Origin: Macrostomum lignano
Taxonomy: Eukaryota
Direction: 5' to 3'
Assembly: GCA_002269645.1 (NCBI GenBank)
Contig: NIVC01004797.1
Coordinates: 1-34,894, forward strand
Length of the DNA: 34,894 nucleotides
Positions 1-27,964 of the stretch are shown here, in pieces. Every line of letters begins with the position of its first letter. Positions within the stretch are counted from its first letter, which is position 1. The notes below the pieces were generated by a model. The model had not been told where the DNA came from. It ran no database searches and saw only the letters and a program-made list of their open reading frames with translations. The position numbers and the translations under genes are program-made.

Positions 1-237
1 TGGGGAAAGGAAGTCGATTTTTCTGACTGAGCTGCTTGAAGACAGGTTTATAACTAGAAGATTTGGGAGCACCCTCGACTGAAGATTCAGATACTGGCTG
101 TGCAGTGAGAAATTCGTTGCTGCACTACAGTTGGCTTAAGCCAAAGTTCTGCATCAACTTAAGAAGCGAGCAGTGTCCGTGGCACACGAGCAGTAAAGTT
201 GGCAGAAGCAGATTTGGTGAAGAAGTTGACGATCGAA

Positions 238-810
238 ATGAGCCCACCAGCTACAGCCCTAAGAGTGACCAATCTGGTTGGCGGAGTAGATCTGAGACTG
301 GATGGTGGCAGGGGCGCTCAGCTGCCTCTACGGGAACTGGCTCTCAGCATGGCTCATGTGATCTACCGGCCCGTCTGGCCCCGGGTGCTCATCAAGCGGA
401 TGCGGATTCCCAGAGTGACTCTCCTACTCTACCCTACTGGGCAACTGAGCATCTGCGGTGCCAAGACCCACGCAGACGCCAAAAGGGCTGCCCGTCGCTT
501 CGTGGCTATGCTGCATCGGAGAGTGCCGGCTCAACTGCTGCCTCATCAAACAATTTGTGTTCGAATTAAAACTATTACTGCTCATGGACAGCTCCCAGTT
601 CATTCCGCACTTTCCTTATTAATGTTAAAATCAATTATCCCAAACGCCGAATATGAACCAGAATCCTTTTCTGCTTTAATTTTCAATTTAAACTTTTGTA
701 AATGTCTGCTTTTTCACAGCGGCTCTTTTGTTCTCAGTGGAGCTCGGTCCTTGAATCAGTTGCATACCGATAGCATGCGTCTACTCAATGTAGTTCTTTC
801 CATTGAATAA
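238..810 (+). CDS. Divergent TATA-binding protein (TBP)-like protein, 190 aa from the first ATG, intronless
   Basis: Two TBP repeats: VTNLV...VIYRP...RMRIPRVTLLLYPTGQLSICGAKT...AARRF and AEYEPESFSALIF...CLLFHSGSFVLSGARS (compare canonical YEPELFPGLIY and LIFVSGKVVLTGAK). The ORF-track start at 199 is TTG; the first ATG is at 238. The stop overlaps AATAAAAATAAA (poly(A) signals). Confidence 0.85.
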   Translation: MSPPATALRVTNLVGGVDLRLDGGRGAQLPLRELALSMAHVIYRPVWPRVLIKRMRIPRVTLLLYPTGQLSICGAKTHADAKRAARRFVAMLHRRVPAQLLPHQTICVRIKTITAHGQLPVHSALSLLMLKSIIPNAEYEPESFSALIFNLNFCKCLLFHSGSFVLSGARSLNQLHTDSMRLLNVVLSIE

Positions 811-1392
811 AAATAAAGTCAAGTCAAGCAATTTGCCGCAAATATTTCAATGATTAGTGAAAAGTGAATAAAAGGATAAACTTGGTATTCTTTACATTCA
901 TTTTCCCAGGCAGACAGCTATGGAACACTTCAAAAACGTATTTAGCCCATCACCAAAAGTATCGCAAAACGCATATCAAATCCGAAAGTAAACAATACTA
1001 CCATCGTTATAACAAACGATGTGCACCGAGAGAAGAGAAATAGAAAAGTGATAGAGAAAATATGATTAAAACGCTGATTGAATTTACAGGAACAATTTGT
1101 GTCAGATAAAAACCAAAAACACATTTTAAACAAGTAGTACACAAAGCAAACAAAAATGAATTAATATTGTATGAGCGCACTTGCCACACAGCTTTATAAA
1201 AAGTAAAACTTAAATTGATATCAATATTTCACGCCGCAAAAACAAATTGACAGCTAAATCTAGCGCAATTAGCCAAGCATACAAATTTGTAAAAGTTACT
1301 ACATGCAAGTCACTACATTTAAAACAGAATTTGGCAATTTAAACAACTCTAAAAGCAAGAAAAAGTACTAAACAGTCTGTTAAACACCCGCA

Positions 1393-4300
1393 CTAGACCA
1401 GTCGGATGCGCTTCAGCTGATCGTGGGATGCGGGCGTCAGCGCATAGTGTCCGTAGGGCAGGCTTCGATTACTGCTAAGCCACACTCGCTTATCCTCCCA
1501 CACCGATAGGCTTCTTTTCTCCATGACCGACGTGAAGATTTCGTGTTTCTTGGAAACAATCGCTGTCATGGCAACCATCTGCTCTTGCTTGGACTCGAAC
1601 GCGTCGACATAGTTCGCATGCGAAATTTGCTGTCTTACTACTGACTGCTTCACGCCTTTGGCAGTTTTCTTGATCTTTGCACTCGAATTCTCGGCAGGGA
1701 GAAACGAATAAAGTTTTGGACGCAAAAGAATCCACTCCTGGTAAATTCCACCAGCAGATTCATCTTTAACGCAGCCCAGCTTTCCTTTTAACTCTTCAGA
1801 GAAATGCGGATGGTCTCGAGAATAGTTGGATGTGTCAAGTATTTTTTCCTCTCTAAGCTTCGGGATTACCTCCGATGTTAAATCATGATTCTTGAAAGCT
1901 AGAAAAAATGAGTCAGTATCACCTCCGCAAAGCATCATGTCTCTGGAACCGTCTGAATGACAGAACAGCGGTCGGAGCCTGTCATATAGTAGGCTGTACA
2001 TGGCCATCTTAGAGAGATCGAGAACTGCCTGGCCAACGAAAATGGCCTTGTCAAGCGTGACTTTATCTTTTTTGAGCTGAAAAATGCTCAACGACTCATT
2101 GATAATCGAGAATGCGGCACAGTTTGGTCGAGAGGCGCAAGTTTCTGCTTGAGTCTGGTTAGTGCAAATTCGAACATCGCATCTTTTTCGAACGTTCTCC
2201 ATAGTTTTTCCAAAGAGAGAATTGTTTTTCAATTTGTAAAAATCCTTAGCAAACTCGGAAGTTGCCAAAGCTCTTTTTTCATTGTTGCTGGCAATGTACG
2301 GCGCGAAAATATTTTCCTGCTTGAACGAAATCATTTTTTTGACGCACTTGATCCGCATTCCGTGTTGCAGGTAAAATCTTAAAACGGTGCTGTGAACTAC
2401 GTAAGAATCCTTGTCGGTACAGGTGAGTAGAAGCTTCTCCGTTGCTTGAAACTTAGCTTCAGCATTGCCAGTTCGCTGTTCAGCAATCTCTTTCCATAGT
2501 TCGGCCATGTACGGCGAGAATTGATCTGGCTGTGGTTTTGATTTTTCAGGTGCAAACGGTAACTCCTGAGTCGAATCGTGAATCTCAGCTGGGTATTCTA
2601 GATCGAGTTGAACAAGGTAGGCGATCTCGGCTTCTGGATTGAGTGACAGAAACCGATTGGAGTCCCAGAACTGGATTTCCTGTTCCGGTACCCACCTGAA
2701 TTCCCTGCATGGAAGCGGAAGCGACAGGGCAAAGCCATACAAGTTGTTCATATCGATCGGCATGAGGCTTACACTCTCTTGCTGATCATCATAACCTGGC
2801 AAGCTAGGATTATTACCTTTGACGCAATGCACATTAATGAAGGACATGCCTCCTCGTATTCCCTTCTCAAACAGATGATACATGTCAGCATCAGTCAGCT
2901 GCTCTAGAACCACTCCAGTCGACTTTAGAGCTGAGTCGTAAGACAAACCAGGAGTAGTAAAGTAGTGTACCGGATCCAATCCGTCCTCTTTCAGACTGGC
3001 CTGTCGGAATGTCTCGAAAATGTCAGCCAGCTGCCTTACATCCATTTCAAGATAGGCGAGCATATAATCCTTCAAACTTTTGCATTGAAATGCCGCCCAT
3101 GCCGCTCTTGCTCTATTGTAGTCGTCGTCGGAAATTCCCCGATCGGAAAGTCGATTAAAAAAAGCATCTTTAGGCGGCAAAACCGACTGCTCGAGAATCT
3201 CAAATCCTGTGAGGTAATCATATGGGAAAATCCCTTTTTTTCGAAGTAGCTCTCTTGAAAGATGTGGTCTTGACTCAAGCATTTGCATTGTCAGCTTGCA
3301 TTCAGCTTCGGGAAGATTAGCAAACAAATTGGACAAACTTCCCTTCAAAAAGCAGAGCGAGTCGATGAACTGAATTGTAAACATGATTGGCACAACTTTT
3401 CCGTTCTTTACGTAACTTGCAACAGGGAATTCCGCCCTTAGTGACAAGTATCGCTCGGATGATTGCGGAACAACACTAAGTTTCCAATTTTTCATGCTCC
3501 CAAGCGCAGTGGAAAGTAGAAGATGAAGGTCGTAGCCGCCTAAGTTGTGAAAAACCAGGGGCAGAAACCGGCGTCGGAGCTGTGCTCGCAGGTTGCATTC
3601 TTGACATGCTGCACCTTTGTACTGTCCATTTAAATGATCGTGGTCAAAATGTTTATCTGTAGAACTTTTAAAGTTCTTCTTGCAGTAGTGACATACCTCA
3701 GCAGAATTGAAATCATCCATGACGGTCGCGGATGATCGGTCAGCCGGCTGGTGGCTATGCTTCTGGTTCCAGTGAAATATATCCTGAGCCAGGCTTTCAA
3801 GAGATTTGAGAAAACCAAGGATACACTCATCAGGGTCCGCATTGCAAAAGACCTTGTACATGTCTCCTTCTGGCCTAAGCGGAGGTCCTGTCATGCCTTC
3901 ACGAGGCACTGCAAGAAAAGCTGCTGCACATGGTTCATGCTTTGAGATCAGGTTAGCAGGGTCTGTGTTCGCTCGCAAAATGGCTTCCAGGTCGGCATAG
4001 GCAACGAATGGTGGACTGACAGTGTTTTGACAGTTTCGGAACTTTATTTCATTCTGTCCTGGAACTGGAAGCGTTTCTTTGACAGGATTTTCTGCAGTAA
4101 TGCTGCATTCGTTCCTGTGCTCTTGAAGCCTCTCGTTGCTATAAAATGATGTTAAACATTTCGTGCACCACTTCCTCATGGCGGGACCATTACGACTGTT
4201 CATTAACCTGTCAAAATTAGTAATTGCACACCAGTGCTCCGATCCGTAGCTGTCTTTAACTAGCAAAAGCATGAGGTGTCTTCGGTCATCTGACTCATGC

Positions 4301-5042
4301 TTGCGGCGACGGAGAAGAGTCACACTGCCCTGCTGCCAAGAGAACGCAGAAATGCAAATTCCTGGATTGTTAGACTCGACGCGATCGATATCAGCGACAC
4401 ACACTGGCATGGAGATTTCTGCAAAGTCCAGCTCACGCAACCATTCATCGTAAGAGGATATTCTGTTGGGCGATTTCTGAACTTTCGGATCGGCGCTGTG
4501 CAGTGCAGCGAGACAGGCGTACAGGAAACAGTCTTTGCCTGTGCTCGGTGGATTGATAACAGCCTTTTTGTTCTTCAAACTGGCAGGAAGATTGAATCTA
4601 ACGGCTCTGCCCTGGCGAAATCGAATTGGATTGTACCTGGCAAGGTTGATGTCTAGAAAATTAATTTGTTTAATTGTCCAGCCACTGCCGTTCGTATTAA
4701 TCATACTACAGATCCTCTCCAACTCCTGCTCCTGCTCAATCAACCAGTTGTTTAAACGGCCTGCTTCACCACCTAGGTCTAGGGCCTGCATTTTACAGCT
4801 TATCCATCTGTCCTCTTCGGCAAGCATCTCCCCATCTCTTATTCGGACCATTCGAATATTCGCCTTTAGCTGAACTTTGTAATGATGTCTTGAAATTCTT
4901 TGCTGAACTGCCTCAATAATTTTGTCTCCAGCTTGGACAAAAAATTCTGACGGAAGCGTGTCTGGGTGACTCGATCTGAGCCTCAGTATTTCCAGTGATT
5001 GATCATAGGCTTGGGCAACTCTGCTGAAGCTGACTGTTGAAC
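1393..5042 (-). CDS. polB: Protein-primed family B DNA polymerase (pPolB), main exon, with C2H2-like finger and inserted endonuclease VII-like domain
   Basis: Exo I YADLEA, Exo II FHNLGGYD, Exo III YLEMD; Pol motifs DMNNLYG, KLKNNSLFGK, GDTDS; N-terminal GSGW and KKAVINP...DCFLYA motifs; CHYC...DHDHLNG...CQECN insert. The frame is open 64 codons upstream of the ORF-track ATG (4851), up to a CAG acceptor ending at 5043. Confidence 0.95.
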
Positions 5043-5274
5043 CTGGTTTGTGGTTTTAGGATAATATTTTTGTTTTTTGCTGCCTATAGTTTCAAATATC
5101 AAAGATACTAAACTAAACGTCTGTACCCAAGCATACATGTACAACCCTACCGGTATAAAGTCTTTTATCTCCCCTTCTCCCATTCTTTGGACTAAAATTT
5201 TAGACTGCATAATATACATCGCATTGATAAGAAAATTTTTAAGTAAGTTGAAAAGGATAAATAAAGGCACTTAC

Positions 5275-5707
5275 CTTGGTGTGCATCAGTCACCGACTCG
5301 CTGTTGGCTGCTGACTCGCTGCTGGCTGCTGACTCGCTGCTGGCTGCTGACTCGCTGCTGGCTGCTGACTCGCTGCTGGCTGCTGACTCGCTGCTGGCTG
5401 CTGACTCGCTGCTGGCTGCTGACTCGCTGCTGGCTGCTGACTCGCTGCTGGCTGCCGACTCGCTGCTGGCTGCCGACTCGCTGCTGGCTGCCGACTCGCT
5501 GCTGGCTGCTGACTCGCTGCTGACGTCATGGTCCACCCAAGGGTGGTCATACTCGATCCACGAGTGGCCATTCTCCATCCACGAGTGGCCATTCTCCATC
5601 CATGAGTGGTCATTCTCCATCCATGAGTGGTCATTCTCCATCCATGAGTGGTCATTCTCCATCCATGAGTGGTCATTCTCCTGCTCCATCCAGGAGTGCT
5701 CAACCAT
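5275..5707 (-). CDS. Putative first exon of polB encoding (MENDHSW)n and (SESAAS)n repeats
   Basis: ATG at 5707 is the first Met after an in-frame stop. There is a consensus donor AAG|GTAAGT after 5275 in phase 1, matching the phase-1 acceptor CCAG|GT at 5043/5042. The joined product reads ...TDAHQ-G-STVSFSRV... and is 1360 aa. Confidence 0.65.
5296..5522. repeat. 18-bp tandem repeat CTGACTCGCTGCTGGCTG, about 12-13 copies (SESAAS on the minus strand)
   Basis: Directly visible near-perfect tandem units. Confidence 0.95.
5545..5700. repeat. 21-bp tandem repeat CATGAGTGGTCATTCTCCATC, about 7 copies (MENDHSW on the minus strand)
   Basis: Directly visible tandem units with divergent end copies. 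Confidence 0.9.
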
Positions 5708-6591
5708 AGAAAAGGCAAGCAGTTAAAAGCTGACAGTGTTTACTGGCTGCAACTGAGTGTCATAAGCAACTGGGAGTGAATATTTGAAATCTTTTTTCGT
5801 AAGTCTTTATTGCTGCAATACTGGTACAATATCCACACTTACAAGCTAGTAGATGCTGGTTATATTTTTTTGGTTCTCCCTTAAGCTAGCTCTCTGCATG
5901 CATATTCTATTGATCCCTATTCGTAAAAGTTCGTTTCTATTTGCCTCCTACGCAGACTCAATCGGTAAAAAATGCAAAATGAAGCCAATAGTTAATTAAC
6001 AAACCAATCACCGAGTGGAAAAATGCTGACATTATATATATATTTTTTAAAAAAATATCGAATTCACATGGTGCAATCATAGTCAATAAACAATGCATGG
6101 AACAATGAATTACAAATACAGACGAGAGTTTAGAAGCAGAAATATAGCTGAAAAGTTCAATAATTAAAGAATGAGGAAACACCGCATCAAAGCAGTAGAA
6201 AGAAAATTATACCTAATCAATCGCACCAAGCATACGAAACCATCACCAATTTATTGAAAGTATGTTATGTTGATTTTAATTTGTTAAATTCAACTGTATA
6301 ATGTTTCACCTACTTTTCAAATAATTTTTTTTTACCTCGGATACCAAAAAAATATTGGTTGCCACTACGAGCTACGAGCTTTTTTTAAAACTAATTTGGA
6401 AATGAAAACTGAAAACTTATAAGCAAGATTCCTAGAAGCGAATACAGAGTTATGAGATGATCAAATCATTAATTAATGTACCTACTTTCAACTTTAAAAA
6501 GCTAGTTGAAATAAAGTTTTAGCAATAATTGCAATAAATGGGTAGATTTCTCACTCCACACAGAAAGCAAAAAAGTACAAAAATTGCTTAG

Positions 6592-7992
6592 TCACAGCGG
6601 CACAATTCTAATACGATTTTCGAAAATCGTTACCTCGTACCCAGCCCCGCCGACAGGAGGCAGAAAGAAGGCAACTCCAGCTGGCACGGGTGGAGTTTCG
6701 GATTGAGAAGCTGGAATTGTAGAGGCTGCAGCTGGGGCGGCTGGAGCAGCTGGGGCAGCCAGAGCAGCTGGGGCGGCCAGAGCAGCTGGGGCGGCTGGAG
6801 CAGCTGGGGCGGCCAGAGCAGCTGGGGCGGCTGGAGCAGCTGGGGCAGCCAGAGCAGCTGGGGCGGCCAGAGCAGCTGGGGCGGCCAGAGCAGCTGGGGC
6901 GGCCAGAGCAGCTGGGGCGGCCAGAGCAGCTGGGGCGGCTGGAGCAGCTGGGGCGGCCAGAGCAGCTGGGGCGGCCAGAGCAGCTGGGGCGGCCAGAGCA
7001 GCTGGGGCGGACAGAGCAGCTGGGGCGGCCAGAGCAGCTGGGGCGGCCAGAGCAGCTGGGGCGGCTGGAGCAGCTGGGGCGGCCAGAGCAGCTGGGGCGG
7101 CTGGAGCAGCTGGGGCGGCCAGAGCAGCTGGGGCGGCCAGAGCAGCTGGGGCGGCCAGAGCAGCTGGGGCGGCCAGAGCAGCTGGGGCGGCCAGAGCAGC
7201 TGGGGCGGCTGGAGCTGCAGGTGGCACAATTGCATTATGCGACTCATTGTCGCTGCCCTCCTCTTCTAGGATTTCCATTTCGTGGTCGTCTTCAATTAGA
7301 TGAAGTTGTTTTCCAGCAATCACCGGAACCGAAGAGACAGGTTGCTGCTGCTGCTGCTGCTGACCAGCGTTGAATTCCCTGAGGAACTGATCCAGGACAT
7401 CTTCCTCTATGAAGTTTATGACAGCAGCAGCCTCGACTCCAGCAGCCTCGACTCCAGCAGCCTCGACTCCAGCGGCCTCGACTCCAGCAGCCTCGACTCC
7501 AGCAGCCTCGACTCCAGCAGCCTCGACTCCAGCGGCCTCGACTCCAGCAGCCTCGACTCCAGCAGCCTCGACTCCAGCAGACAGCTCAACTTCAAATTCT
7601 GCAGCTGCTGAAGACCCGCTTGGCCTCATCCTCTTCAATGTAGAGTCAATTACTTGACTCAAGTGAGCTGATAGCAGACTCCTGCTGGCTCCCTTTTTCT
7701 GCTGGCTCTTCTTTTCTCTCTCGTTGCTCTTTTTGATGGCGCGGATTACTTTCCAGCGGTTACTTTCTTGCTTTTTCTTGTCATCGCTGACGATCTTGTG
7801 TCCTCGATGATATGCTGGAATTTTTCCCTCCTGCAGAGCTTCGACGGTGCCGCACTGGTCGCATGCCAACCAGCATGAGACCAGACAGTTCTCATTCTCG
7901 TGGTGTCTTGGGGACACGCCTCCAAGCAGGCACACTTCGCAGCTTATACAGACCTCATAGAGGTCTCTATGACAACTTTTAAAAGTTTTCAT
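6592..7992 (-). CDS. Hypothetical 466-aa protein: Cys/His-rich N-terminus, basic segment, AAGVE repeats, Gln run, acidic patch, Ala/Pro repeats
   Basis: Long ATG-initiated ORF with non-repetitive N- and C-terminal parts, an AT-rich leader and TATAAAAG about 50 nt upstream. No family recognised. Confidence 0.7.
   Translation of the reverse strand: MKTFKSCHRDLYEVCISCEVCLLGGVSPRHHENENCLVSCWLACDQCGTVEALQEGKIPAYHRGHKIVSDDKKKQESNRWKVIRAIKKSNEREKKSQQKKGASRSLLSAHLSQVIDSTLKRMRPSGSSAAAEFEVELSAGVEAAGVEAAGVEAAGVEAAGVEAAGVEAAGVEAAGVEAAGVEAAGVEAAAVINFIEEDVLDQFLREFNAGQQQQQQQPVSSVPVIAGKQLHLIEDDHEMEILEEEGSDNESHNAIVPPAAPAAPAALAAPAALAAPAALAAPAALAAPAALAAPAAPAAPAALAAPAAPAAPAALAAPAALAAPAALSAPAALAAPAALAAPAALAAPAAPAAPAALAAPAALAAPAALAAPAALAAPAALAAPAAPAAPAALAAPAAPAAPAALAAPAALAAPAAPAAPAAASTIPASQSETPPVPAGVAFFLPPVGGAGYEVTIFENRIRIVPL
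6727..7215. repeat. 18-bp tandem repeat GCTGGGGCGGCCAGAGCA and variants, about 27 copies (AAPAAL/AAPAAP)
   Basis: Directly visible; built from two 9-bp sub-units. Confidence 0.95.
7425..7580. repeat. 15-bp tandem repeat GCAGCCTCGACTCCA, about 10 copies (AAGVE)
   Basis: Directly visible. Confidence 0.95.
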
Positions 7993-8042
7993 TTTGAAAG
8001 AGAAAGAGTTGTTTTTTAGAAGTAGTAAGGTTTTTAAAAATC

Positions 8043-8050
8043 CTTTTATA
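8043..8050 (-). promoter_or_regulatory. Candidate TATA box (TATAAAAG) for the 466-aa ORF
   Basis: Exact TATA consensus 51-58 nt upstream of the ATG at 7992; function inferred from position only. Confidence 0.45.
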
Positions 8051-8321
8051 CAATTTGTTTTTGTCTATTTGTTTATTTGTACTTGCGTGGCTGCTTATAT
8101 AGTAATTTGTACATGCATGCCCTCTCCTTATCATATCGTATATGAACATCCAGCCATGCTCAGGTAATAATTACTTTACCGTTATAGAGGCCACTGGCTG
8201 TAATTAGTGTATCCCCCCCGTCCCCTTATCCAGGTAAGCAACACCAGCCGTCCTCTGTGCAGTTGTAAAACTTTATAACCTTACCCTAACACAGAGCACA
8301 GAGATTGGCCACCCCTCTTAT

Positions 8322-8806
8322 CTCTGCAATGTTTAGCCGTTCCCAATGCACAGAGATAGGATCCTCTCCGCAGTGTATTTTTCCTATATCCTTTTTGCCG
8401 CCTATCTCGCCAGCGCTAGTGCGGCAGTATCATGAATCGCCTCTATCTCCGCAGTGCTTAGCCGTCCCCAATGCACAGAGATAGAGCTCATATCTCTGCA
8501 GTGCTTAGCCGTCCCCAATGCACAGAGATAGAGCTCATATCTCTGCAGTGCTTAGCCGTCCCCAATGCACAGAGATAGAGCTCATATCTCTGCAGTGCTT
8601 AGCCGTCCCCAATGCACAGAGATAGAGCTCATATCTCTGCAGTGCTTAGCCGTCCCCAATGCACAGAGATAGAGCTCATATCTCTGCAGTGCTTAGCCGT
8701 CCCCAATGCACAGAGATAGGGCTCATATCTCCGCAGTGTATTTTTCCCTATACATTTGCATTGCCGCCTATCTCGCCAGTGCTAGTGCGGCAGTATCATA
8801 ATTCGC
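8322..8806. repeat. 47-bp palindrome-containing tandem array (six copies at 8451, 8498, 8545, 8592, 8639, 8686, plus a diverged copy near 8325) with a duplicated flanking block; probably part of the element's terminal inverted repeat
   Basis: Unit GCAGTGCTTAGCCGTCCCCAATGCACAGAGATAGAGCTCATATCTCT; block 8370-8440 recurs at about 8733-8806. Confidence 0.95.
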
Positions 8807-11118
8807 CCTACTACTAAAGGGTCTTCCATTGCAAATTTGAGGCCGATTCTCTCCGCCGTGCCCCTCATACAAAACTGCAACTGGGGTTCAGAATGGGTCG
8901 GCAGAATGGATGCATCCCGATAAAGAAATCCTGCCTTCCAGGCGCGGCACTGGTCAGCAAGTGCTTTTTCTCTCTGAACTGCATCGCTCACAAGCATACA
9001 AGCACATTTTCAGCGGCTTGCTGGAATTTCTCGATCTTGTTATGGGATGCTGAACGGTAGGGAAAAATTGCACCCAACTTTTTCCTTCATCATCATGCCC
9101 TTGTTCCTACCGAAGCGCACAAACAATTAAAACAGAGAAGCACTTTTTATTGCACTTGCTGCTTGCTGCGGTTCGAACGGTTTCCCGTCCGCTCTGCCTC
9201 ATTATCCGACATCCACAACTTGTTATCGCAGAACCTTCGTTCTGTACAAGCGCAAAGCATGCACAAAGGCTTGCATTAGCGTTTTATTTTCCCAGGCAAA
9301 GACGATGAATGCATGCGTCTAGAGAACTTTTTTTACATGTAGTCCTATGAATTTCGGCTGACTGGCAATGTCTTTAGCATTTGCAGACAGAGAATCGATA
9401 AAATCTAAAAGAATTAGCAAGGCAGCTGTTGGATAGCCAGCACGCTTTAATTCACGCTTGAATACAAATCATTCGAGATCTTAACCGGAATTAGTCTAGG
9501 GCTCTATGCTATTACTGTTCTGCATGCATTGGAATCAGTTGCTTTGGTGCCAATAATTTTCATTCGATTCATTCAGGATGCTCGCTCCCACTGCAGAATA
9601 GTTCCGTATGGAAGCAACGTGGTGGGCAGAATGGAAGAAACGGCTTTGGGTGCACCGGGTGCAGTTCATGGAGGGAAAAAGATTTCGGACTAAATGGTTG
9701 CGTAGCTCTGGTAAACAAAATGGCCGAGACTTTGCTTGTCGACTGTGTATGTTGGCCAGTGTGGTTTTGCAGTGGGGACAGAGTGCGTAGCTGGGGCTTG
9801 GCCCCTCGGTGCGTGCACATCTCTATCCGCCACGAAGGCCGATCAGGATCAAGCAGCCTCACGATGAAGCCCACACAACTTACTATATTTAACCGTAAGC
9901 CGCAAAACTTCTGATCTTCAAAGTTCCACGCCCAAAGCAAAAGTTTTAGGGAAACGCAATTCGATGCCATTTCCTAGCTCATACCATATTCTAGTCTTTG
10001 CGGGGGTAACTTATCATAGTAAAAGGTCACACTCTGCCAATCTTTTAGCCACTTGCATACTGCAGCTACCGCAGCAACCGGGAATTTGTTTAGCGGATAC
10101 CATTTTGTACAATTGAAGTCAGTTAGAAAAGTACAAATGTTGCGAGCCCTGATGATCTGAAGGCGAAGCGTAAATGCAAAGCTTGTAGTGCATTAAGTAT
10201 GCGAACGTGTTGAAAACCGCATCAAGTTCCATTCGAGAAGTTGGTGGAAAAATAATTGGACACGTGATCAGCGCTAGAGTGTAGGTTTGGAGAGAGCGTA
10301 AGTTTTACGCACTAAATCAAGCATAAAACATAAAACTGGAGCTAGCATTCAAGTGATTTCCAACGTATAGCTGACGCAATAAAGCGTCCAAAAGGCTAGA
10401 GTTGGTTCTTTTTTATTTCCTTGGTCCTGCGTGGAAGGAAATCGAAACAATTCAGTTTTACTTCTGTCTTTGCTTGCTTTGCTTGCTTCCCCTCTAAATC
10501 GAGTTCAACGAAACGATTATCTTTACATTAATAAAAAATAAATTGTGAAACATGCGTAACTTCTATATTAACTTTAATTTTGTAAATTTTTTTGTTTGCA
10601 ACCTCAACAGAACATTAAAGGTTGAATATTTTCTAAACCAATTTGTCATGTAGAGGTGGGGAAAAATCTCGACATAAAAATTGCAGGCTCCGAAAGTCAA
10701 GCCCATATTTTCTGAGACGGCTTACGTTACCCGTGCACTCATTTATGTAGAAAATTCTGTAATTTCGGAACTCATTGCGGGTGATGTGACAGAACCCTAT
10801 CAGTCTGTTGTAAGGACAGGACAGTTTTTAAATTAGAAAATCGCGATGAACAATTATAACAAAAAGAGTCAAATTAAAGTGCTTTTTTGGCCCAAGACAG
10901 GTAAAGGAACCAGAAAGATTATTTTTAAAACGTGAAGTTTTTTTATACGCAACAATTTTCTGATTAGGCATTGTTTTTACTAATCAGCTGATCAGCCTTG
11001 ACAAATCATATGATTCGCCGAGGTAACTACTAAATTCTAACTCAGTAATCGTTACTAAAGGTCAAGCAGTTTTTGTGACGCAGCACAGCGATTGATTTTA
11101 GAAGCGTTCTTACTAAAG

Positions 11119-18466: not shown

Positions 18467-19193
18467 CCAAAACGGTAACAAATATACAGACGACAGTCAA
18501 ATAGTGGCAGTCAGGTTGTGTGTGGTGTGGGGCCTAGGCTAAATCGCGGGCTCCCGTGCAAAATGTCTAAGACTACAACGTCTAGCAGTACAAGCCTAAT
18601 TCACTTTATTTACAGTTCTATGGCTAAACTCGCTGCAGAGCAGATCATTCGCTTGAAATATTGGTTTCCTTGGTTTGTTTTGCATTAGCAGTAGTTATTC
18701 ATAGCCATTTAGTTGGTTTTGCTGGCTGGGCTCGACTGAAAAAACAAGGGCTAAAAAACAGACACCCCCTCTGCACGATCATATCGTTCGATCGATAAAA
18801 TTCAACCCCTACCCCCTCTATACAGCCAAACTGTCTAGGGCCCTGCTGGGCTTGGCTTTCGCCTATCCTCTCAAGTCTGCTAAAAACCTTACCCATCTCC
18901 ACTGTCTGTGATTGGCTGAGAGGCCGGGGGAGGCCGGGAGGGGTTTAAAAGAAGTTAATAAAACCAACGCCCCCAGCAAGCAGCAGTTGAGCGGCGGGGC
19001 GGCTTTAGCATTCCGCATTTGTTTTAGCTCGTGCTGCAAGTCTGCAACCAAAGCCTATGGCTATAAGCGCGCTTCCTGTCAAGTATAATGTAAATCCTAG
19101 TTAGAATTAAAACAATGCCTATTTAAATTATGATAGCTGGATTTTTGCGGTCGGTATCTCTGTGCCCCATATTGTTAGTTTTTTTGACCATCC

Positions 19194-21300
19194 TGCAGAA
19201 TCGTTCGTTAAATTCACTGTACGCACATTTTTTAGCTATTGACATGAAACTTTCCGAAAATGAATATTTTCATTATGCTAACATTTTAGAAGTGTTTCAG
19301 AAGTGCCATATTTGTTAGTTCAAGGGCTGGGCGGTCTCTTGAGGTTGCACAATCCATGTTGGGGCAGGTCTTGAGCCAGCCATTTTTAATTTTAAGTGGA
19401 AAGCATCTAATTCGCAGTATTTACCACAGAATATACACAGAATGGCGAATCGGCAGTTCTCTATGAAAGCGAAAATAAATGCGATTGCACTACTAACGTT
19501 GTGAAGCTGATAAGTAGCTGCGATTTTTTAAACGCAAAGTTGAATGTAAAAGTTGAGCTCAAGACAGCCTTTGAAAGCTCTGAATCATCGTTTTGACGCT
19601 GCAGATGAATGCTGCGCCATCATTGTAATTAATTTGTTCATAACGGTGCGTCCGCAAAGTCATGAGCAGAAGTAACAACTGTTATAACCTCATTGCCATG
19701 TACATGTAAGCTAAAAAACAAAAGTAACAAACATTTAACAACAGGTTAAGTTTTAGCGCTGCACGCAAGGCAGGAAATGCCAGACGCAACAGAAATAACA
19801 AATCTCATGCAATCACACTCATATTCTTGAACTTCCTCGATTGCTCATTGCAAAATGCTCGCCCGCGCTTTCTCTCCTGAGCCGCAATCCTGCGCCCATT
19901 GCACCAATGGTGCAAGCGCAGCTTCGAGAACAGCCTCGCAATGCCCATCACGCATCTCTCTGAGTGCTCAGCGCAATGAGTCGCAATATGTTGCAATCGG
20001 CCAATAATTTGCTGATTCTGTGTGACACACCAGCATGCATGAACTCTGTCACTTCCAGCAATTTGAATTGGCGTTCCATCTCAGTGACAGCTCTGATAAC
20101 TGCTCTGCTTGGGGTGACTAAGCTGTCATCCCGCTTGCACTTCAGTCGCAGGAAGCGTGTCCGAATTGCTTTCCTTTCAGTTCCTGCTGGAACACCTCAC
20201 ACTTGCACTCGGTTTTAATGAAGCGGAACAGCAACCAACCGCCGACATATGCGCATTTCTCGTGATCTAAGTCATCCGATGTAGCAAAGAGCTCATCACC
20301 TGCTTCCGTGAGATCTGAGTCACAAGTGTTGCCCTGCAGGTGGACTGGATCTGGAGCTTCTTGGCTCACTGCAGCCTTGGATGCTCTCTGGCTGCTGAAA
20401 ACCGGTGAAATCTAGTGCCCGGCGGACACTTGCCGGCGTAGTTGGGGCATCCGTACGCAGCGCACTGAAGCCTCAAAGCAGACGCAGTCATGCGAAAACA
20501 GTATCACAATAAGCTGCGTATTAAAACTCTAGCAGATATGCCTTCGGTATTACATGTAGCACTTTTGAAGCCAGACCTAGCTTCAGCAGCACCAGCTTGG
20601 GCCATAGAGAATGCAATATAGCAAAGACAGGCTAGCGCGATCAATAATGCATTTGACCTGCATGCTTTCACGCCACGAGCTCGTGCTTGAACGCCCAAGG
20701 CATGCTGTCTATGGCACTAACTTAAAGCGCAGCAGAAGGCAGGGCCAGCCTTAAGGTAGTTTCTAAAAATAGCACAGTTTAGAAGGGGGTGGGTTGGTTC
20801 ATCAAGCCTTCTTCCTATATTCTGTGGGACAAACCCGCAATAAATGGCAAAGAATTGGTAAAGTGCCATTCAGCCTACTTAGTTTCTCTTCACAACAAGA
20901 GTAGCCAGTATAGAATATCATTCTTGTGCAAGAAATTTTCTCAAAATGCGGGATTCGCCATTCTGTGTATATTCTGTGGTATTTGCAGCTTAGCAGTGCC
21001 CCTATCCTTAAAGCCCCAGAGTTTGTAGCTAATTTTGGTCATAGACACATTTTTTACCAGTGACATCAGCAGCGCACAAATTCAAAATTGCATAATCGTT
21101 AATAGTCGTTTAAATTCGGAAAAACACGGAAAACCCCGGAAATTGCAATAAAAGTTAAGTTGCAACCCCCCACAAATGGAATTTTAATGTCAAAACACTT
21201 CTAAAATGTTGGCATGATAAAAATATAATTCATTTTTGGAAATTTTCGTGTCAATAGCTAAAAAAATGTGCGTACAGTGAATTTAACGAACGATTCTGCA
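19194..21300 (-). mobile_element. Internally deleted P-element/THAP-family transposon
   Basis: Inverted repeats of about 105 bp (19194-19297 and 21193-21300), a perfect 30-bp inner inverted repeat (19422-19451 and 20952-20981), and THAP and transposase C-terminal remnants inside. No TSD found. Confidence 0.75.
19805..20491 (-). pseudogene. P/THAP9-like transposase remnant: THAP start joined to the C-terminal domain
   Basis: ATG at 20491 gives ...QCAAYGCPNYAGKCPPGTRFHRF (THAP N-half). Shifted frames then give AYVGGWLL, KRDDSLVTPSRAV...EMERQF and IARLFSKLRLHHW...SRK, which are C-terminal motifs of P-type transposases. The catalytic core is absent. Confidence 0.75.
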
Positions 21301-21542
21301 CGATAGCCAGTTTTTTATTCGAACTGCAGAAATTAGTCATAATTTCAGCGTCTGATCTAATTTAAATAAATCAATGCCAATCAATAGGCAATATTTACTA
21401 TGCTTTTAGTGGGGTAGTTTTAAATTGCTCAAAAATTGTAGAAAAGCTTTTAAATGTATCATGAGCTAGTTTTTTATACAAACAATATCTTTTATACAAT
21501 AACGAGTTTATTAGACTATTTATTCTATTTGTTTATTGTTTA

Positions 21543-22018: not shown

Positions 22019-22832
22019 TTACTTACAGTACCTAATACAGTGATTAGTGTTAGGTTGAGCATTGTTGTGCAACAGAAGGTGAGGCTTCATCGCAGTCCTG
22101 CGCTTGTTGCGAATGTCAGATTTCAGCTTGGTCAGTGTCTCAGCGTAGCGATCCGAGTTAATCGTGCTGTTCGGCTCGAGAAAGTCGATGGTCAGCGGAT
22201 CTTCTTGATCGAAGAAGAAGGTCAGCATGATCTTCTTGCAGTACTGGTCTCGTTTTGCCTTCACAGATGAATCTGAACCCTTCAACGCCCATACCTTGCT
22301 CTCCTGCTTTGTCTCCGGGTCAAAGTGCGGAATCCAGGTCTCGTCGCTGGTCACCACATACGGTCGGAAACTCTCCCACCCACCGGCATCCTGAGCCAGC
22401 TCAAGATTCTCCCTGCAGGACTTCATTCTTGCAGCTTTCATTTCTTTCATCAACAAACGGGGCACCAATCTTGCCGATAGCTTCACCATGCCAAGATTCT
22501 CCGCCAAAATTCGGTAAATTGACGTTTTTGGGCTCCCCAGCCCATTTGCCATCTTTTTTGCGGTGGAACGGGGATTTTCTTGAATGAAATCCTTTTTCAA
22601 CTAGGGCCTTAGTTGATGAGGAAATGGGACAGCCACGGCTGGCTGTGTCATCAGCAACGTCCGTTCACCCTTGGCTGAACTCTTCGATCCACCGGTAGAC
22701 TGCACTCTTCGAAATCGCGCCTGCTCCGTGGATGTCAGTGAGCTTGCTGACAATTTTGCTGCCTCGCTTCCCAAATCTCCACTGGGAATACACAAACTGG
22801 CGTTGACCTTCTTTAGATGAAACGCTAAACAT
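22019..22832 (-). pseudogene. Mariner (Tc1/mariner, Mos1-like) transposase pseudogene, 3'-truncated
   Basis: ATG at 22832, HTH region ...ISKSAVYRWIEEFSQG*TDV (stop, then frameshift), ENPRST, ARLVPRLL (WVPHEL-like), VTSDETW, KKIMLTFFFD, LLHNNAQP (second catalytic D changed to N); the third Asp/YSPDL region is missing. Confidence 0.92.
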
Positions 22833-23470
22833 TTAACAATTGAACGAGGGAGAACAGAAAAGATGAAATCAACAATGCTGTCTTGTCGTGATCGAAGATC
22901 AGTACCGTGATTTCAAATGCTTCTTGCAGCTTTACGCCGGTGCCACTGATGTTTTTTGTGCTGTTCTGCTTCTGCATTTGTTTTAGATTAGCTTCTGCTT
23001 TTTCGAGGGCTTATGTGTGCTTTTGTTTCTCTTCAGCTTCTTCGTTTGCTTTTGTTTTCGGATCGATGGTTCTGACTAAAGATCAAAAATTTAGTCTATG
23101 GTCTAGCATAGTAGGCTCGACTTGGTGTAACTCTATTCACTACCCCTTGTTCTAATTATAGACAAAACTTTTGAATGAGTTGACATTTTTACCCAATTTA
23201 AATAAGCAAAACAACCGTTGAATATTTTTAAATAATACAGGGACAACTAAAACCCTCGGGACGCGAAACGAGCCAATTCATGGCAAAAAATCTGAGGGGC
23301 TCGCTTAAAAGTATTGTTCTATGGCTTTTTAAAGTCTTCTCTGCTATCAGGCATTAACGGTTAGATTAAATAGTAAAGCGAGGCAATGTCGAGTATTTAA
23401 TTTAAAGAATAGGAACCAGTGATATAATTACAATGTAATTTACAATAAAGTAACCGCCATATCAACAAAA

Positions 23471-23635
23471 AACTCCAACGGCAAGAAGATAAAAGATGAA
23501 AGCAAAGATATAACTCCAACGGCAAGAAGATAAAGGATGAAAGCGAAGATGAAACTCCAACGGCAAGAAGATAAAGGATGAAAGCGAAGATGAAACTCCA
23601 ACGGCAAGAAAATAGAAGCAAATACGGAACTCCAA
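23471..23635. repeat. 41-bp tandem repeat AACTCCAACGGCAAGAAGATAAAGGATGAAAGCGAAGATGA, 3 full copies plus partials, at the P element 3' end
   Basis: Units at 23471, 23512, 23553, 23594. Confidence 0.9.
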
Positions 23636-23724
23636 GGACAAGACGACACAAACAGTCAGTAGCTCGTACATAAAGGAAACGCTGGAACTTCACCTACTGA
23701 GCATTTAACTTCCGAAGCTTTCTA

Positions 23725-26530
23725 TCATGGGATGTCGTCGGTATTGGTGGGAGTTTTGACGAGCGTCTTACTAGTCCTTTGAAAAAAACGTTGGCTAGCC
23801 GACGGGACACTGTCCATGCTGAACTGTGTGTTAGTTGGAAAGTAAAAGTCCTTAATAACATAAAACAGCTTCTGCACGCGAGTTGCGCACGTAGGAGAGT
23901 GCAGAATAAAACTGCTGTAGCAGAGACAGGATAAGTCTAACAGCCATTGTGGAGGATGACAAAGCTTTCCGCGAGATAACTCTTCAGTGAATTCGCTGGC
24001 TGGAATGCTCGTCTCTGATATCAAATCTGTTCCTTTGATGCCTGCCTTCTTTAGTCGCTGTATAACCTGTCAATTTCCAATTAAGCACGGTTTGAATTGT
24101 TTTGATGAGATTGTGTAAAACCTCGTTGTGAATTAAATTTTAATTAATATCCAGCTTACCTGCGATATAGTGTAGAGCGAAGCCATCTCCGAAATGGAAA
24201 GCTCCTCTGATTTAGCAGCACAATTATCAATGGTCGCCAGTTCAATTTCATTCAGCTGTTCATTGCAACATTTGCTCCGATCGTGCTTGTAGTCTGCTAA
24301 TTCAAGGGATGTCAATAATTTCATTCGTCGGAGTCGAGCACTGAGCAGCACTTGCTCCACAGATACATAGTAGTTGCCGCCGCTCATTTGGCGATATACG
24401 CCAGCCAGCCAGCAGAACGTAGCTGATTCGTGGGTCGGACAAAAGAACCTCACACATCTCACAGGCTCCGCGCAGTGAGTTTACTAGCGCTGACTTGGTC
24501 TCGGGCGTCAATGAATGATGGCGAGCTCGGCCTTTTCCACAATGTGTCGAATCAAACGAATCCGCGAGCGCGCTAAGAAATTGTATGCTTTCATCTTGAA
24601 CGGAATAGACTGGTCGCCTGTCCGGATCCCGTAGTCGTGCGTGTAGATCAGGATTTTTACAATTGACAATTTTCCAGAATCTCACTATGGTTTTGATAAA
24701 TTCCGCAGTGTCTGAGTATCCATCACACTTCAATGCAGCGGCAACCCTTTCATCGAGAACTTGGAGAGCGAGACTGACTTTAGTTTTCTGAGTGCTTGTG
24801 GGATAACAGGCCTCATGAGTTAGACATGTGCGCTTGACTACGTGGTCTTTCTCCATTTGGTACAGGCGTACCACGTCTGACCATTTAGCGGATATCTGTC
24901 TGTCAGCGCCAGGAGGTTGAATGCTTAGAATTCCATTCGCTTCCATTTGCCAATTGTTGCGAATGCATTTGATAATGTGAACGAAATCGAACAGCATGAA
25001 GAATTCCGACTCCTGTGCAGCATCCGTTCCAATCCATGGCTTCTCTCTTCCATCGCTAAATAAAGCAAAACACTTGCGGTTGGTCGGGTGATTGTCGCTG
25101 ACGAGAGCAACGACACGGCCACCGTTGTTGTTAATTGCTTTAATACATTGGCTGACGCATTTTCGCAGAAACTCCGCAGACAAAATGTATGTCGGCAATA
25201 GTCGGACTACAAACGGTTTTCCACCAAGTAATGGCTTTACCATTATGGCCAAAATTGTCCTAGCAACCTGGTCCGGATCGTCGACGGCTCGACCCAGGTG
25301 ACGGCATCGATATCGAACGGACGGTTGTATGTACATTTCGTCAAACATATTACGCAGTTTCGCTGAGCTCCTGATAGACTAGCAAAAACTGACTGGATCA
25401 CATCGGCTGCGTCGGTTTCTGTGCCAACTTCTCCTGTACCTGCTAGTTGCAGCTGCAGCGTTCGGGGATGAGGCAATGGCAATAGCTTCCGTAGGTAAGA
25501 GTAAGCCGAACTACTGATCAAGTAGAGCAATGCTGACTGTCGCACTAGTGAAATGTCATAGCGGCGATTGTTCCGATTTACTAATTTAAGGCTAAGTTGT
25601 CGAATCAAAAACTGAAGCGACCGATCCAAATCAGAGTCAGAATCTATATCATCACTGATTCTACTAACAAACGCTTCGACTTCACGTTGGGGATTGGCGT
25701 CGGAATTTTTGCACCGCACGACAACAGCATCCAGTTGCGACCAGCGTCGGTTGAAATCCCAACAAGTCTCGAACCGAAATCGGTGTATGCAGTTTGAATG
25801 CACGAATCAGAAAGTTAGGTGAGACAAAAATTCGAACAGACAGGTCTCCATCTTTATCTAACGTAAACAAGTAAATGTCTTCGTTCAGAATAGCTGTATT
25901 CAGTGCATGTCGAGATACGATATCCGAATTTTTCACCTCAGCTCGAAAACTTTCCCATGCCGGCAAAAAATCAAGCAGCTGAAAAGCGTCCATCTCATCG
26001 ATGTCGCTGCACCTCGCGTCAGAAAGAACACCGCGCTTTTCGGCCTGTCGGTCTTGGTCTAAAATAAGAGTAAAAATAAAAGTAAGATAATTGTGAGCGG
26101 CAAAATCGATATAGACGCTAAGTGTTGAGCAATCTTTAAGTTACGTACCTTGGTTCTGAACAAAACACGAGCTAGGAACTCCATTAAAAACAGAAGGAGG
26201 ATTAATTGGCCTTTTGGTAGAGTTTTTCTTGAACATTGGAGCATCGCTTGGCCAATGCTTTACGCACACGCCCATATTGTCAGTCACTCTCTAAAATAAT
26301 AAATTTTGGGTTTCAAGTTGTTTGGACGAGACTGGCATGCAGAATTGAAGCGGAATTATGCAGCAGTAATGACAGCAAATGATCTGGTTTCTTACCTGGA
26401 GAATATTTGGCAGCGCCTTTCTCCATCGCTCTCGCTCCTGTGGATCTCTGGGAAACGCAAATGTCCGTGTTCGAACGGCTTCAGAGTTGTAATTTGACGA
26501 GCACGGAAATACGCTGCACTTTCTTGGCAT
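23725..26530 (-). pseudogene. Spliced THAP-domain P-element transposase pseudogene
   Basis: Exon 26530-26396 (MPRKCSVFPC...FAFP...RERW), exon 26290-26149 (GVCVKHW...PPSVF), exon from 26058, then SAYSYLRKLLPLPHPRTL, FDEMY, VSDNH, FDFVHIIKCIRNNW, KVSLALQV, YRQMSGGNY, a further intron near 24160-24070, and SEFTEELSRGKL. At least five frame disruptions. Confidence 0.92.
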
Positions 26531-27008
26531 TTCATCAAGTGAATAAAAAATGCTTCTCTTGATATAGTTCAGCTTAGCTTCACTGCTGGCCGCAGCTAAA
26601 GCAATTTTAATTTGCCTGATTGCAGAGAAGACTTGAAAAAGCCATAGAACAATACTTTTAAGCGAGCCCCTCAGATTTTTTGCCATGAATTGGCTCGTTT
26701 CGCGTCCCGAGGGTTTTAGTTGTCCCTGAAATAATACTAATGACGCAAGTTGCATAAAATTCGAATACTACAGTCAGCCTCTGTACTGGTTTTTTCTGTT
26801 ATTTCTGGGACAATCCTCGTAAATACGTCGTATTCAAAACATAAAAGATAATAGCGATTCTTGTGATGGAAAGCTATGTAATATGGGCAGAGAAACTCTT
26901 AAAAGGATTTGAGAGTTGTAAAAATGGATAAACCTGTACATATATGACATCGCATAGTCGATCGTCCCGTAGTGCTTATTATAAAAAGGCGCATTTGAAT
27001 AGTGAAAA

Positions 27009-27290: not shown

Positions 27291-27605
27291 CTTGACTGGC
27301 ACAAAATTTTTCGGTCTTTGGTGTTTCGGTCTGCTTATAAGTTATAGTCACGGCTCGAATATGTCACATGAGCACGTAGATAGCTATAGCTGGGAACTAA
27401 GGCGCTTGTAGCAAAAAAATCGAATGCTACAAGCATGAGCCAAAATGCAGCCATAGACACTTAAACCCCAGTGTGGCTCAGTACAGTGTCTATGGTATGT
27501 AACGCATTTTACGCACGCATATGTAACGCAATAGCCGGGCCAGGAAATAATTCACGGCGAAAAATAAAAAACAAGAGAAGAAAAATACCAAAGTTAAAAA
27601 GCACC

Positions 27606-27964
27606 TCCAGGACAAACAGCTTCAATAGAAAGTTCTTCACCTCACTTTTTGACATTTCGTCCACGTCGGTTAAAACCAGTAAAGCTGGACCACCGCCTGT
27701 GGTCCAGAAATGCTTTTTCTCGTCGTGCCATTCTCGTAAGATTTGAATTGCCCATTCTGCCTTCCTTGTTGTCGAGGGCGAGCTCTCCTCAATCTCTCGC
27801 TGAAATTCCGCTTCTGTCAGTGTCTGGAATCGTCCCTTATTTTCACTGGAGCGCGCCAACTGCGACTCATTTTCTGTTTGTATCAGAAAGTCCAGTAGAT
27901 CCGGAGAAATCTCCCTATCTGGGGTCTCAAAATCGCCAGGATCGGAAGGTAAACCGTCTTCCAT
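27606..27964 (-). pseudogene. Crypton-type tyrosine recombinase, N-terminal exon
   Basis: RFQTLTEAEFQREIEESSPSTTRKAEWAIQILREW...MSKSEVKNFLLKLFVLE matches the RFxxL...TxxKTxWAxxxFxxW...LxxFxxEVR N-terminus of Crypton/KCTD1-like proteins; followed by AT-rich, intron-like sequence. Confidence 0.7.

What the first reader, a model, noticed from the sequence alone, without database searches (positions are those of the whole stretch)
1..8815. Polinton-like element that appears to carry its own transcription module (TBP homologue, putative transactivator, TATA promoter)
Seen: an intronless TBP-fold gene lies tail-to-tail with an uninterrupted pPolB, inside a segment closed by a Polinton-type terminus. 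A second accessory ORF has a Cys/His cluster, basic, acidic and Gln segments and a perfect TATA box. Known: the canonical Polinton gene set is pPolB, RVE integrase, packaging ATPase, protease and major/minor capsid proteins; TBP homologues are a feature of large Nucleocytoviricota, and I do not recall them as a described Polinton gene (no literature search was possible). Inference: this may be a Polinton/adintovirus lineage that redirects Pol II initiation with its own TBP. The intact frames, next to heavily decayed transposons in the same window, suggest a recent insertion.
Basis: partly seen in the sequence, partly recalled or inferred. Interest (0 to 1): 0.9.

Follow-up and report, generated by a model that had tools for sequence, protein, structure and literature searches.

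The report
Polinton with own TBP and box
A virus-like Polinton transposon that has spread through a flatworm genome carries its own altered TATA-binding protein and repeats one odd TATA-like box in front of most of its integrase, predicted capsid and packaging genes, so it likely uses that protein to switch on its own late genes.

Summary
Confirmed. Window 1-8815 is the right half of a ~17-kb Polinton in a genome named as Macrostomum lignano. The TBP-fold gene (238-810) is a stable Polinton gene: 152 matches in the genome, two families 39% alike, 70 of 70 loci beside other Polinton genes, dN/dS mostly 0.1-0.2, and separate from host TBP and TRF2. Other copies supply inverted ends, 6-bp target duplications, integrase, protease, ATPase, a likely capsid and a PC4 gene. 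A box CTTAAGAA (family B mostly TATAAGAA or CATAAGAA) precedes 8 of 10 cassette genes, TBP included, on the sense strand and beyond shuffled controls; PC4 and the Cys/His gene have ordinary TATA boxes. The TBP keeps the TFIIB-contact glutamates but has fixed changes on its DNA face, including loss of the proline that demands T at box position 1. Likely mechanism (untested): an early-to-late switch. Against: host TBP could sterically accept the box, and no binding or start-site data exist. 'Transactivator' is unsupported. Precedent in print: one figure-legend label. This scan noted TBP-bearing Polintons before in other genomes.

The parts
54..569 (+). 3' part of the upstream Polinton ORF (DEDD-like motif at its start, label recalled); its frame overlaps the first 110 codons of TBP. 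The frame is broken in the first ~50 bases of the window, at the contig edge
   Evidence: overlapping frame open for 108-130 codons in 35 of 35 distinct intact copies; chance 0.1-2.2% per lineage
158..165 (+). CTTAAGAA box 80 nt upstream of the TBP start
   Evidence: present at -65 to -80 in 25 of 25 distinct family-A copies
238..810 (+). Divergent TATA-binding protein, 190 aa, intronless
806..817 (+). Two AATAAA hexamers at the TBP stop (predicted poly(A) signal)
1393..5042 (-). pPolB exon 2 (annotated ORF 1393-4851; frame open up to the acceptor at 5042)
5043..5274 (-). 232-bp GT..AG intron of the pPolB transcript
   Evidence: joint 5040-5273 in one contig of run X9, 1 of 4 runs; GTAAGT..CAG ends and phase check
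5275..5707 (-). pPolB exon 1: acidic, Trp-containing repeats
   Evidence: an acidic Trp-repeat ORF at the same place in another subfamily
6592..7992 (-). Cys/His-cluster protein with long Pro/Ala repeats; function not established
   Evidence: C-x2-C-x2-C..W-x2-C-x2-C..H-x2-H invariant in 4 of 4 subfamilies at 25-34% identity
8094..8101 (-). Canonical TATATAAG box of the Cys/His gene
8315..8815 (.). Right terminal inverted repeat with 47-bp tandem repeats, ending in the (AGT)n terminus; inner boundary approximate

Best explanation
The window holds the right half of a multi-copy Polinton that encodes its own divergent TBP and PC4 and repeats one non-consensus TATA-like box before most integrase, predicted capsid and packaging genes; the TBP likely binds that box and is predicted to recruit host TFIIB and RNA polymerase II, which would give an early-to-late switch. 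Shown: the genes, their linkage, selection on the TBP, two classes of upstream box, and splicing of pPolB in one run. Inferred steps: (1) host TBP reads the canonical TATATAAG boxes of PC4 and the Cys/His gene (early); (2) weak host-TBP use of CTTAAGAA, or a canonical TATAAAAG in family B, makes the first element TBP; (3) the element TBP, with an intact acidic stirrup but a changed DNA face, binds CTTAAGAA better than host TBP does and raises its own gene and the cassette (positive feedback in family A); (4) PC4 acts as coactivator or as the single-strand binding protein of replication.
For: TBP kept across two families with dN/dS 0.09-0.43 (5' half, 28 of 28 family-A pairs) and 0.07-0.24 (3' half, 11 of 28 pairs; 16 saturated, 1 without synonymous change). 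[ACT]TAAGAA 8-12 times on the cassette sense strand against 0-2 on the other, shuffle means 2.0-2.7 (five family-A arms); family B 9:0 and 8:0. Synonymous-shuffle test for [CT][AT]TAAGAA: 6 vs 1.5, 5 vs 0.8 (0 of 1000 each), family B 3 vs 0.6 (P=0.005), pPolB genes 0 vs 1.3. The box before integrase stays 38-58 nt from the start codon in four subfamilies where the DNA aligns at under 50%. In 17 of 17 element TBPs (yeast numbering): N69, V71, T112, L114, E186, E188, F190, F207 kept; F116Y, V122S/T, T124C, N159T, V161T, V203K, P191S/T/N fixed. P191 is the residue reported to demand T at box position 1 and V203 contacts position 2 (PMC1636458, passages); family-A boxes start with C in 6 of 8 cases in each of three subfamilies. 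Outside this genome, the only 2 non-cellular TBPs among 80 metagenome loci lie beside PC4 plus zinc fingers (L111) and beside a Polinton-like integrase (L112).
Against: No binding, start-site or knock-down data. By the structural rule quoted in PMC13566119 (passage) only positions 2, 4, 5 must be A/T, so host TBP can sterically accept CTTAAGAA: a private TBP is not required. One intercalating Phe is Pro in 12 of 12 family-A rows and N159 is lost, which may weaken DNA binding. Protease and the 230-aa gene have no box; in family B two boxes lie only 11-13 nt before the nearest ATG, too close for a TATA box unless a later ATG is used. With the loosest pattern family B is borderline (P=0.053; one arm matched by the shuffle maximum). 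The pattern was chosen after seeing family A. Family B has the same V203K and loss of P191 but mostly T/C-ATAAGAA boxes, so box and residues do not co-vary one to one.
Confidence: 0.55

Rival explanations
1. Host TBP reads the box; the element TBP is a decoy or modulator that titrates TFIIB or TBP inhibitors, or dampens host transcription, without choosing promoters itself.
For: Acidic stirrup invariant while two of four intercalating Phe and N159 are replaced; host TRF2 also keeps the stirrup with a changed DNA face; the box is sterically allowed for cellular TBP.
Against: The DNA-face changes are fixed across families 39% alike rather than drifting, and N69, V71, T112, L114, F190, F207 are invariant; the proteins stay basic, pI 9.5-11.3.
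Confidence: 0.22
2. The box is a late initiator read by the polymerase of a helper large DNA virus (TAAG is the baculovirus late core; recalled), and the TBP serves another purpose.
For: TAAG core; boxes 11-13 nt before an ATG in family B; virophages use giant-virus late promoters (search listing only).
Against: pPolB is spliced at a GT..AG intron and PC4 and the Cys/His gene have canonical TATA boxes, which points to nuclear Pol II; most family-A boxes lie 34-80 nt upstream; no helper virus was looked for or seen.
Confidence: 0.08
3. TBP and PC4 work in DNA replication or packaging (bending or unwinding DNA at the ends), and the box is unrelated to them.
For: PC4 folds bind single-stranded DNA (recalled); the TBP 3' half co-segregates with pPolB in mosaic copies.
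Against: The boxes track start codons, not the termini; the TFIIB-contact glutamates are invariant.
Confidence: 0.1
4. The box is a 3'-end signal of the preceding gene, since genes are packed head to tail.
For: Boxes fall in the last 165 nt of upstream ORFs; AAGAAA is a weak poly(A) variant (recalled).
Against: Before integrase the box stays 38-58 nt from the ATG while its distance from the PC4 stop varies from 126 to 434 nt; several boxes lie 100-400 nt before the upstream stop codon; the last gene ends in AATAAA twice.
Confidence: 0.05

Closest known systems
Polintons / Mavericks / adintoviruses (PMC8502044: passages and section 3.4; PMC11071308: passages)
   Same: pPolB with an N-terminal OTU-like Cys motif (read from the sequence), RVE integrase, adenain-type protease, ATPase, likely capsid, (AGT)n inverted ends, 6-bp target duplication, 11-17 kb
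   Different: Carries TBP and PC4 in two families, two classes of upstream box, and a conserved frame overlap on the TBP gene
'TBP' label in Fig. 5 legend of Starrett et al. (PMC8502044; bioRxiv 10.1101/697771)
   Same: A TBP-like gene in a mid-size linear dsDNA virus with adintovirus-like PolB
   Different: A legend entry only, in the section on non-animal datasets; the figure is not held, so which virus bears it is unknown to me; no analysis of residues, selection or promoters in the text I saw
Cellular TBP and TRF2/TBPL1 (PF00352)
   Same: Two-repeat saddle fold; YEPE stirrup; F190, F207, N69 kept
   Different: 25% identity to host TBP and 23% to host TRF2; own clade (SH-aLRT 99); no N-terminal extension; fixed changes at 99, 116, 122, 124, 159, 161, 191, 203
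TBP-like proteins of large DNA viruses (Nucleocytoviricota; BFVD matches)
   Same: Virus-encoded TBP fold, TM-scores about 0.6-0.7
   Different: 7-19% identity; those viruses bring their own RNA polymerase (recalled), whereas no polymerase or TFIIB gene was found among this element's ORFs
Altered-specificity yeast mutant TBPm3 (PMC1636458, passages)
   Same: A few changes at 194/203/205 redirect TBP to a non-consensus box
   Different: Engineered and tested; here natural, different substitutions, untested

Membership tests
Polinton/Maverick | Protein-primed family B polymerase | tested here: met
   PF03175 E=2.1e-12
Polinton/Maverick | RVE integrase in the same element | tested here: met
   PF00665 E=3.2e-13 plus chromodomain in another copy of the family; outside the window
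Polinton/Maverick | Terminal inverted repeats with (AGT)n ends | tested here: met
   155-1034 bp in 5 of 5 copies compared
Polinton/Maverick | 6-bp target-site duplication | tested here: met
   5 of 6 perfect, 1 with one mismatch
Polinton/Maverick | Adenain-like protease | tested here: met
   PF00770 E=7.2e-5, over cut-off
Polinton/Maverick | A32-like packaging ATPase | tested here: inconclusive
   Walker A motif; Pox_A32 E=0.011, under cut-off
Polinton/Maverick | Double jelly-roll major capsid protein | tested here: inconclusive
   Atlas score 0.98 to a cluster with PF21738 DJR in 24% of members, recognition under the tool's threshold; no Pfam or PDB sequence hit; structure job unfinished
Polinton/Maverick | Single jelly-roll minor capsid protein | not tested
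   272-aa ORF called penton by position only; no Pfam or PHROG hit
Canonical TBP | Two-repeat saddle fold | tested here: met
Canonical TBP | Four intercalating phenylalanines (role recalled) | tested here: not met
   F190 and F207 kept, F116 is Tyr in 17 of 17, F99 is Pro in 12 of 12 family-A rows
Canonical TBP | Acidic TFIIB-binding stirrup E186/E188 (role recalled) | tested here: met
   17 of 17; sequence only
Canonical TBP | Binds a TATA box and supports initiation | not testable with these tools
   needs binding and transcription assays
TRF2/TBPL1 | Groups with TRF2 | tested here: not met
   host TRF2 groups elsewhere
Short (165-185 aa) TBPs from other contigs, two of them beside PC4 or integrase | One clade with the flatworm element TBPs | tested here: inconclusive
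   each group has SH-aLRT 98-99, their join is unresolved

The most novel reading that the evidence does not exclude
A widespread group of animal Polintons runs its own early-to-late transcription cascade on host Pol II with a naturally respecified TBP and a private promoter box - a self-contained lytic-style programme that needs no helper virus, and a natural orthogonal TBP-promoter pair.
Probability: 0.45. Interest if true: 0.88.

Novelty: new variant of a known kind. Interest (0 to 1): 0.72.

Why it matters
Whether Polintons are dormant transposons, helper-dependent parasites or autonomous viruses is open, and how their capsid genes would be switched on is unknown. A TBP kept by selection together with a gene-class-specific box gives a concrete, testable regulatory circuit in a laboratory animal with RNAi. 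It would also be a natural case of a TBP with changed promoter specificity in a 17-kb element, a size class thought to rely wholly on host initiation factors.

Tried and rejected
No RNA holder listed on record; runs were 'RNA?' guesses kept as contigs, so start sites, strand and level could not be read. Contigs of 4 of 4 runs cover the left cassette without any splice joint, also upstream of the PC4 TATA box, so cover there may be DNA and is not used as evidence of TBP expression. In two runs of one study cover falls near the TBP stop while two other runs go on: one study only, not counted. Viral-contig scans with the element alignment, host TBP and two short TBPs found no relative; the metagenome scan with the element alignment found none. 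The look-up of contigs for database proteins was closed, so the context of P0002-4, P0006-7 and P0019 is unknown. PHROG and PDB sequence searches did not name the capsid, DEDD-like, 112-aa or 230-aa proteins. The capsid structure job did not finish; no PDB fold search was run; the Atlas search for the Cys/His domain did not complete. The host TRF2 row was in a wrong frame and is ignored (correct). The primary TBP-TATA structure paper (PMC317201) is not held. Rejected: host retrogene captured by chance (70 of 70 linkage, selection, own clade); decayed pseudogene (35 distinct intact frames); DEDD-TBP fusion as the normal product (one database gene model, P0015; separate frames in 35 of 35 intact copies). 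No complex prediction was sent.
Full report
OBSERVATION. The window is the whole of contig C4797 of a 764-Mb assembly; the TBP protein is annotated in Macrostomum lignano. ORF 238-810 (+) matches Pfam TBP with two repeats (E=7.9e-25) and solved TBPs (best E=2.1e-18), folds as a TBP saddle (pLDDT 83.7) and finds viral TBPs by structure at 7-19% identity. ORF 1393-4851 (-) is a pPolB. The element ends at 8815 in an (AGT)n terminus. The Cys/His ORF and its TATATAAG box are real.

WHAT IT IS. The TBP has 152 matches in the genome (150 of 231 candidates scored; 25 listed at 100% over full length, the window among them). A second family is 39% identical (first 40 rows, some being pieces of one copy). 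Stretches of other copies, read separately, give for family A the order: terminus - PC4 (PF02229, E=5.5e-8) - integrase with chromodomain - 272 aa (penton by position) - 125 aa - 427 aa (likely major capsid) - protease - ATPase - 112 aa - 230 aa - DEDD-like (label recalled) - TBP, then on the other strand pPolB and the Cys/His gene - terminus. Family B has pPolB at the left and a PC4-like gene (E=5.6e-5, just under the cut-off) behind TBP. Lengths are about 16-17 kb in family A and 11-17 kb in the family-B copies seen. Inverted repeats measure 155-1034 bp in 5 of 5 copies; 6-bp target duplications are perfect in 5 of 6. Of 70 TBP loci examined (the 20 and 10 best hits picked by hand for diversity; one is the window), 70 have another Polinton gene in the flank, 62 a core gene and 50 pPolB. 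Host TBP and TRF2 are separate genes on three contigs each, 25% and 23% identical to the element protein.

SELECTION AND STRUCTURE OF THE GENE. There are 35 distinct intact TBP frames among the loci held. Among 8 family-A representatives, dN/dS is 0.09-0.43 in the 5' half (28 of 28 pairs) and 0.07-0.24 in the 3' half (11 of 28 computable). TBP is better conserved (75-78%) than the protease, the 230-aa protein or pPolB (50-60%) in the most distant family-A copies. Copies are mosaic, with a break at about codon 110-120. The upstream ORF's frame stays open over the first 108-130 TBP codons in 35 of 35 copies; random synonymous recoding leaves it open in 0.1-2.2% of trials. Mapped on yeast numbering through host TBP, 17 of 17 element proteins keep N69, V71, T112, L114, E186, E188, F190 and F207, and all carry F116Y, V122S/T, T124C, Q158K, N159T, V161T, V203K and P191S/T/N; F99 is Pro in the 12 family-A rows, and the 5 family-B rows align poorly there. 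Among 144 aligned TBPs only the element clade has this set (20 of 154 database rows were dropped as partial). The roles of the four Phe and of E186/E188 are recalled.

TWO CLASSES OF BOX. The idea of looking for a shared box came from earlier notes of this scan on other genomes; the test is my own. In family A, CTTAAGAA or a one-letter variant precedes integrase, penton, 125 aa, capsid, ATPase, 112 aa, DEDD-like and TBP (8 of 10 cassette genes; not protease or 230 aa) at 34-160 nt. [ACT]TAAGAA occurs 9, 10, 12, 8 and 10 times on the sense strand of five left arms against 0, 0, 2, 1 and 1 on the other strand (shuffle means 2.0-2.7, maxima 6-8 of 200), and at chance level in four pPolB arms. Family B, not used to choose the pattern, gives 9:0 and 8:0. 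Shuffling synonymous codons shows the excess is not due to Lys/Arg-rich ends (ORFs from two copies per family were used where one was broken), though family B is borderline with the loosest pattern (P=0.053). The non-element part of the window has 0.12 boxes per kb on both strands. TBP itself has CTTAAGAA at -65 to -80 in 25 of 25 family-A copies and canonical TATAAAAG at -53 in 9 of 10 family-B copies; this differs from note e1-7879962, where the TBP gene lacked the box. PC4 and the Cys/His gene have canonical TATA boxes in 4 of 4 subfamilies each.

EXPRESSION. One contig of run X9 (1 of 4 runs; RNA status a guess; 26 letters on the short side) skips 5040-5273 with CT..AC ends, exactly a 232-bp GTAAGT..CAG intron that puts the acidic exon 5275-5707 in phase with pPolB. 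This shows a processed pPolB transcript in one sample. Nothing comparable shows a TBP mRNA.

RELATIVES ELSEWHERE. Database proteins of both families exist in Logan, ENA and JGI data (P0002-4, P0006-7, P0019), without context. A profile search of 1.8 billion representatives gave 8 hits under 1e-30, 7 of this clade and one plant TBP. The element TBPs form one clade (SH-aLRT 99) away from host TBP and TRF2; a second clade of short TBPs (98) exists, and its link to the first is unresolved (52 of the rows were used in the second tree; no large-virus TBP with a known name was in either tree). A metagenome scan for the short TBPs kept 80 of 444 loci: 78 are cellular-type, and the other 2 lie beside PC4 with zinc fingers and beside a Polinton-like integrase (E=3e-14).

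MECHANISM. Most likely (0.55): host TBP starts the early genes from TATATAAG; the element TBP, made from its own box, recognises CTTAAGAA-type promoters, recruits host TFIIB and Pol II through its intact stirrup, and turns on integrase and morphogenesis genes. PMC1636458 (passages) says the C-terminal repeat reads the 5' half of the box, that Pro191 disallows bases other than T at position 1, that residues 194/203/205 contact position 2, and that wild-type TBP did not select G at position 6 although a cavity can take it; the element has lost Pro191 and changed 203, and its box has C at 1, T at 2 and G at 6. Against this, PMC13566119 (passage) lists only positions 2, 4 and 5 as strictly A/T, so host TBP could bind the box. 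Rivals: decoy or modulator (0.22), role in replication (0.10), helper-virus initiator (0.08), 3'-end signal (0.05).

PRIOR KNOWLEDGE. Searches: polinton + TATA-binding protein, maverick/polinton/TBP (13), polinton + PC4 (50), TATA-box binding protein + Maverick (79), Macrostomum lignano + polinton (92), polinton + late promoter (123), TATA/adintovirus/TFIIB (137). [quoted passage not shown] 5 and its preprint (passages and section 3.4 read); the figure is not held, and its supplement is cut when stored and gave no hit, so more may be there. Term searches in PMC10748475, PMC11071308, PMC11296320, PMC11131425 and bioRxiv 2026.10.13.758929 found no TATA or TBP; PMC11131425 reports VLTF3 in some polintoviruses and gene-class-wise expression (passages); PMC10675990 mentions sporadic TBPs in mirusvirus-like elements (passage). 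Subscription journals and Repbase were not searchable. Six earlier notes of this scan describe TBP-bearing Polintons in other genomes; they are unchecked leads, not support.

VERDICT. Observation confirmed, interpretation partly supported and extended. A Polinton by the features tested (capsid fold and ATPase inconclusive); new variant of a known kind; interest 0.72.

Noticed in passing
window 238-810; L022 vs L025, L028, L031, L034: Subfamilies are mosaics: the block from mid-integrase to codon ~110 of TBP is 90-100% identical between copies whose TBP 3' half, pPolB (about 50% aa), PC4 and termini are far apart. The break lies between the two TBP repeats, where the overlapping frame ends.
   Followed up: partly
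window 54-569: The upstream ORF's tail overlaps the first TBP repeat in another frame in both families (35 of 35 copies); it is Ser/Gly/Cys-rich and its purpose is unexplained.
   Followed up: partly
window 5275-5707; L026:5715-6104: A 5' exon of acidic Trp-containing repeats is spliced onto pPolB; a different acidic Trp repeat sits at the same place in another subfamily.
   Followed up: partly
L053:1879 and L038:2217: In family B the same TATATAAT promoter sequence precedes pPolB at one end and PC4 at the other, apparently as part of the ~1-kb inverted repeats; gene order differs from family A.
   Followed up: no
L111:24-2008; L112:155-1147: Unrelated metagenome contigs with C2H2 zinc fingers + double PC4 + short TBP, and short TBP + Polinton-like integrase.
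   Followed up: partly
window 23233-26733: P-element-type transposase remnant (PF21787, PF21788) between 121-bp inverted repeats.
   Followed up: no
window 22019-22552: Mariner transposase fragment, PF01359 E=9e-16.
   Followed up: no
window 19185-21309: Nested inverted repeats of 30-49 bp around about 2 kb, probably a non-autonomous DNA transposon.
   Followed up: no
window 27509-27964 and 30819-31100: Two ORF pieces that recall Crypton-type transposon proteins (recalled; no Pfam hit for the first, second not scanned).
   Followed up: no
L051:2210-2869; L052:1842-3035: Host TBP and TRF2 have intronless core domains and each occurs on three contigs, so copy counts in this assembly may be inflated about threefold.
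   Followed up: no
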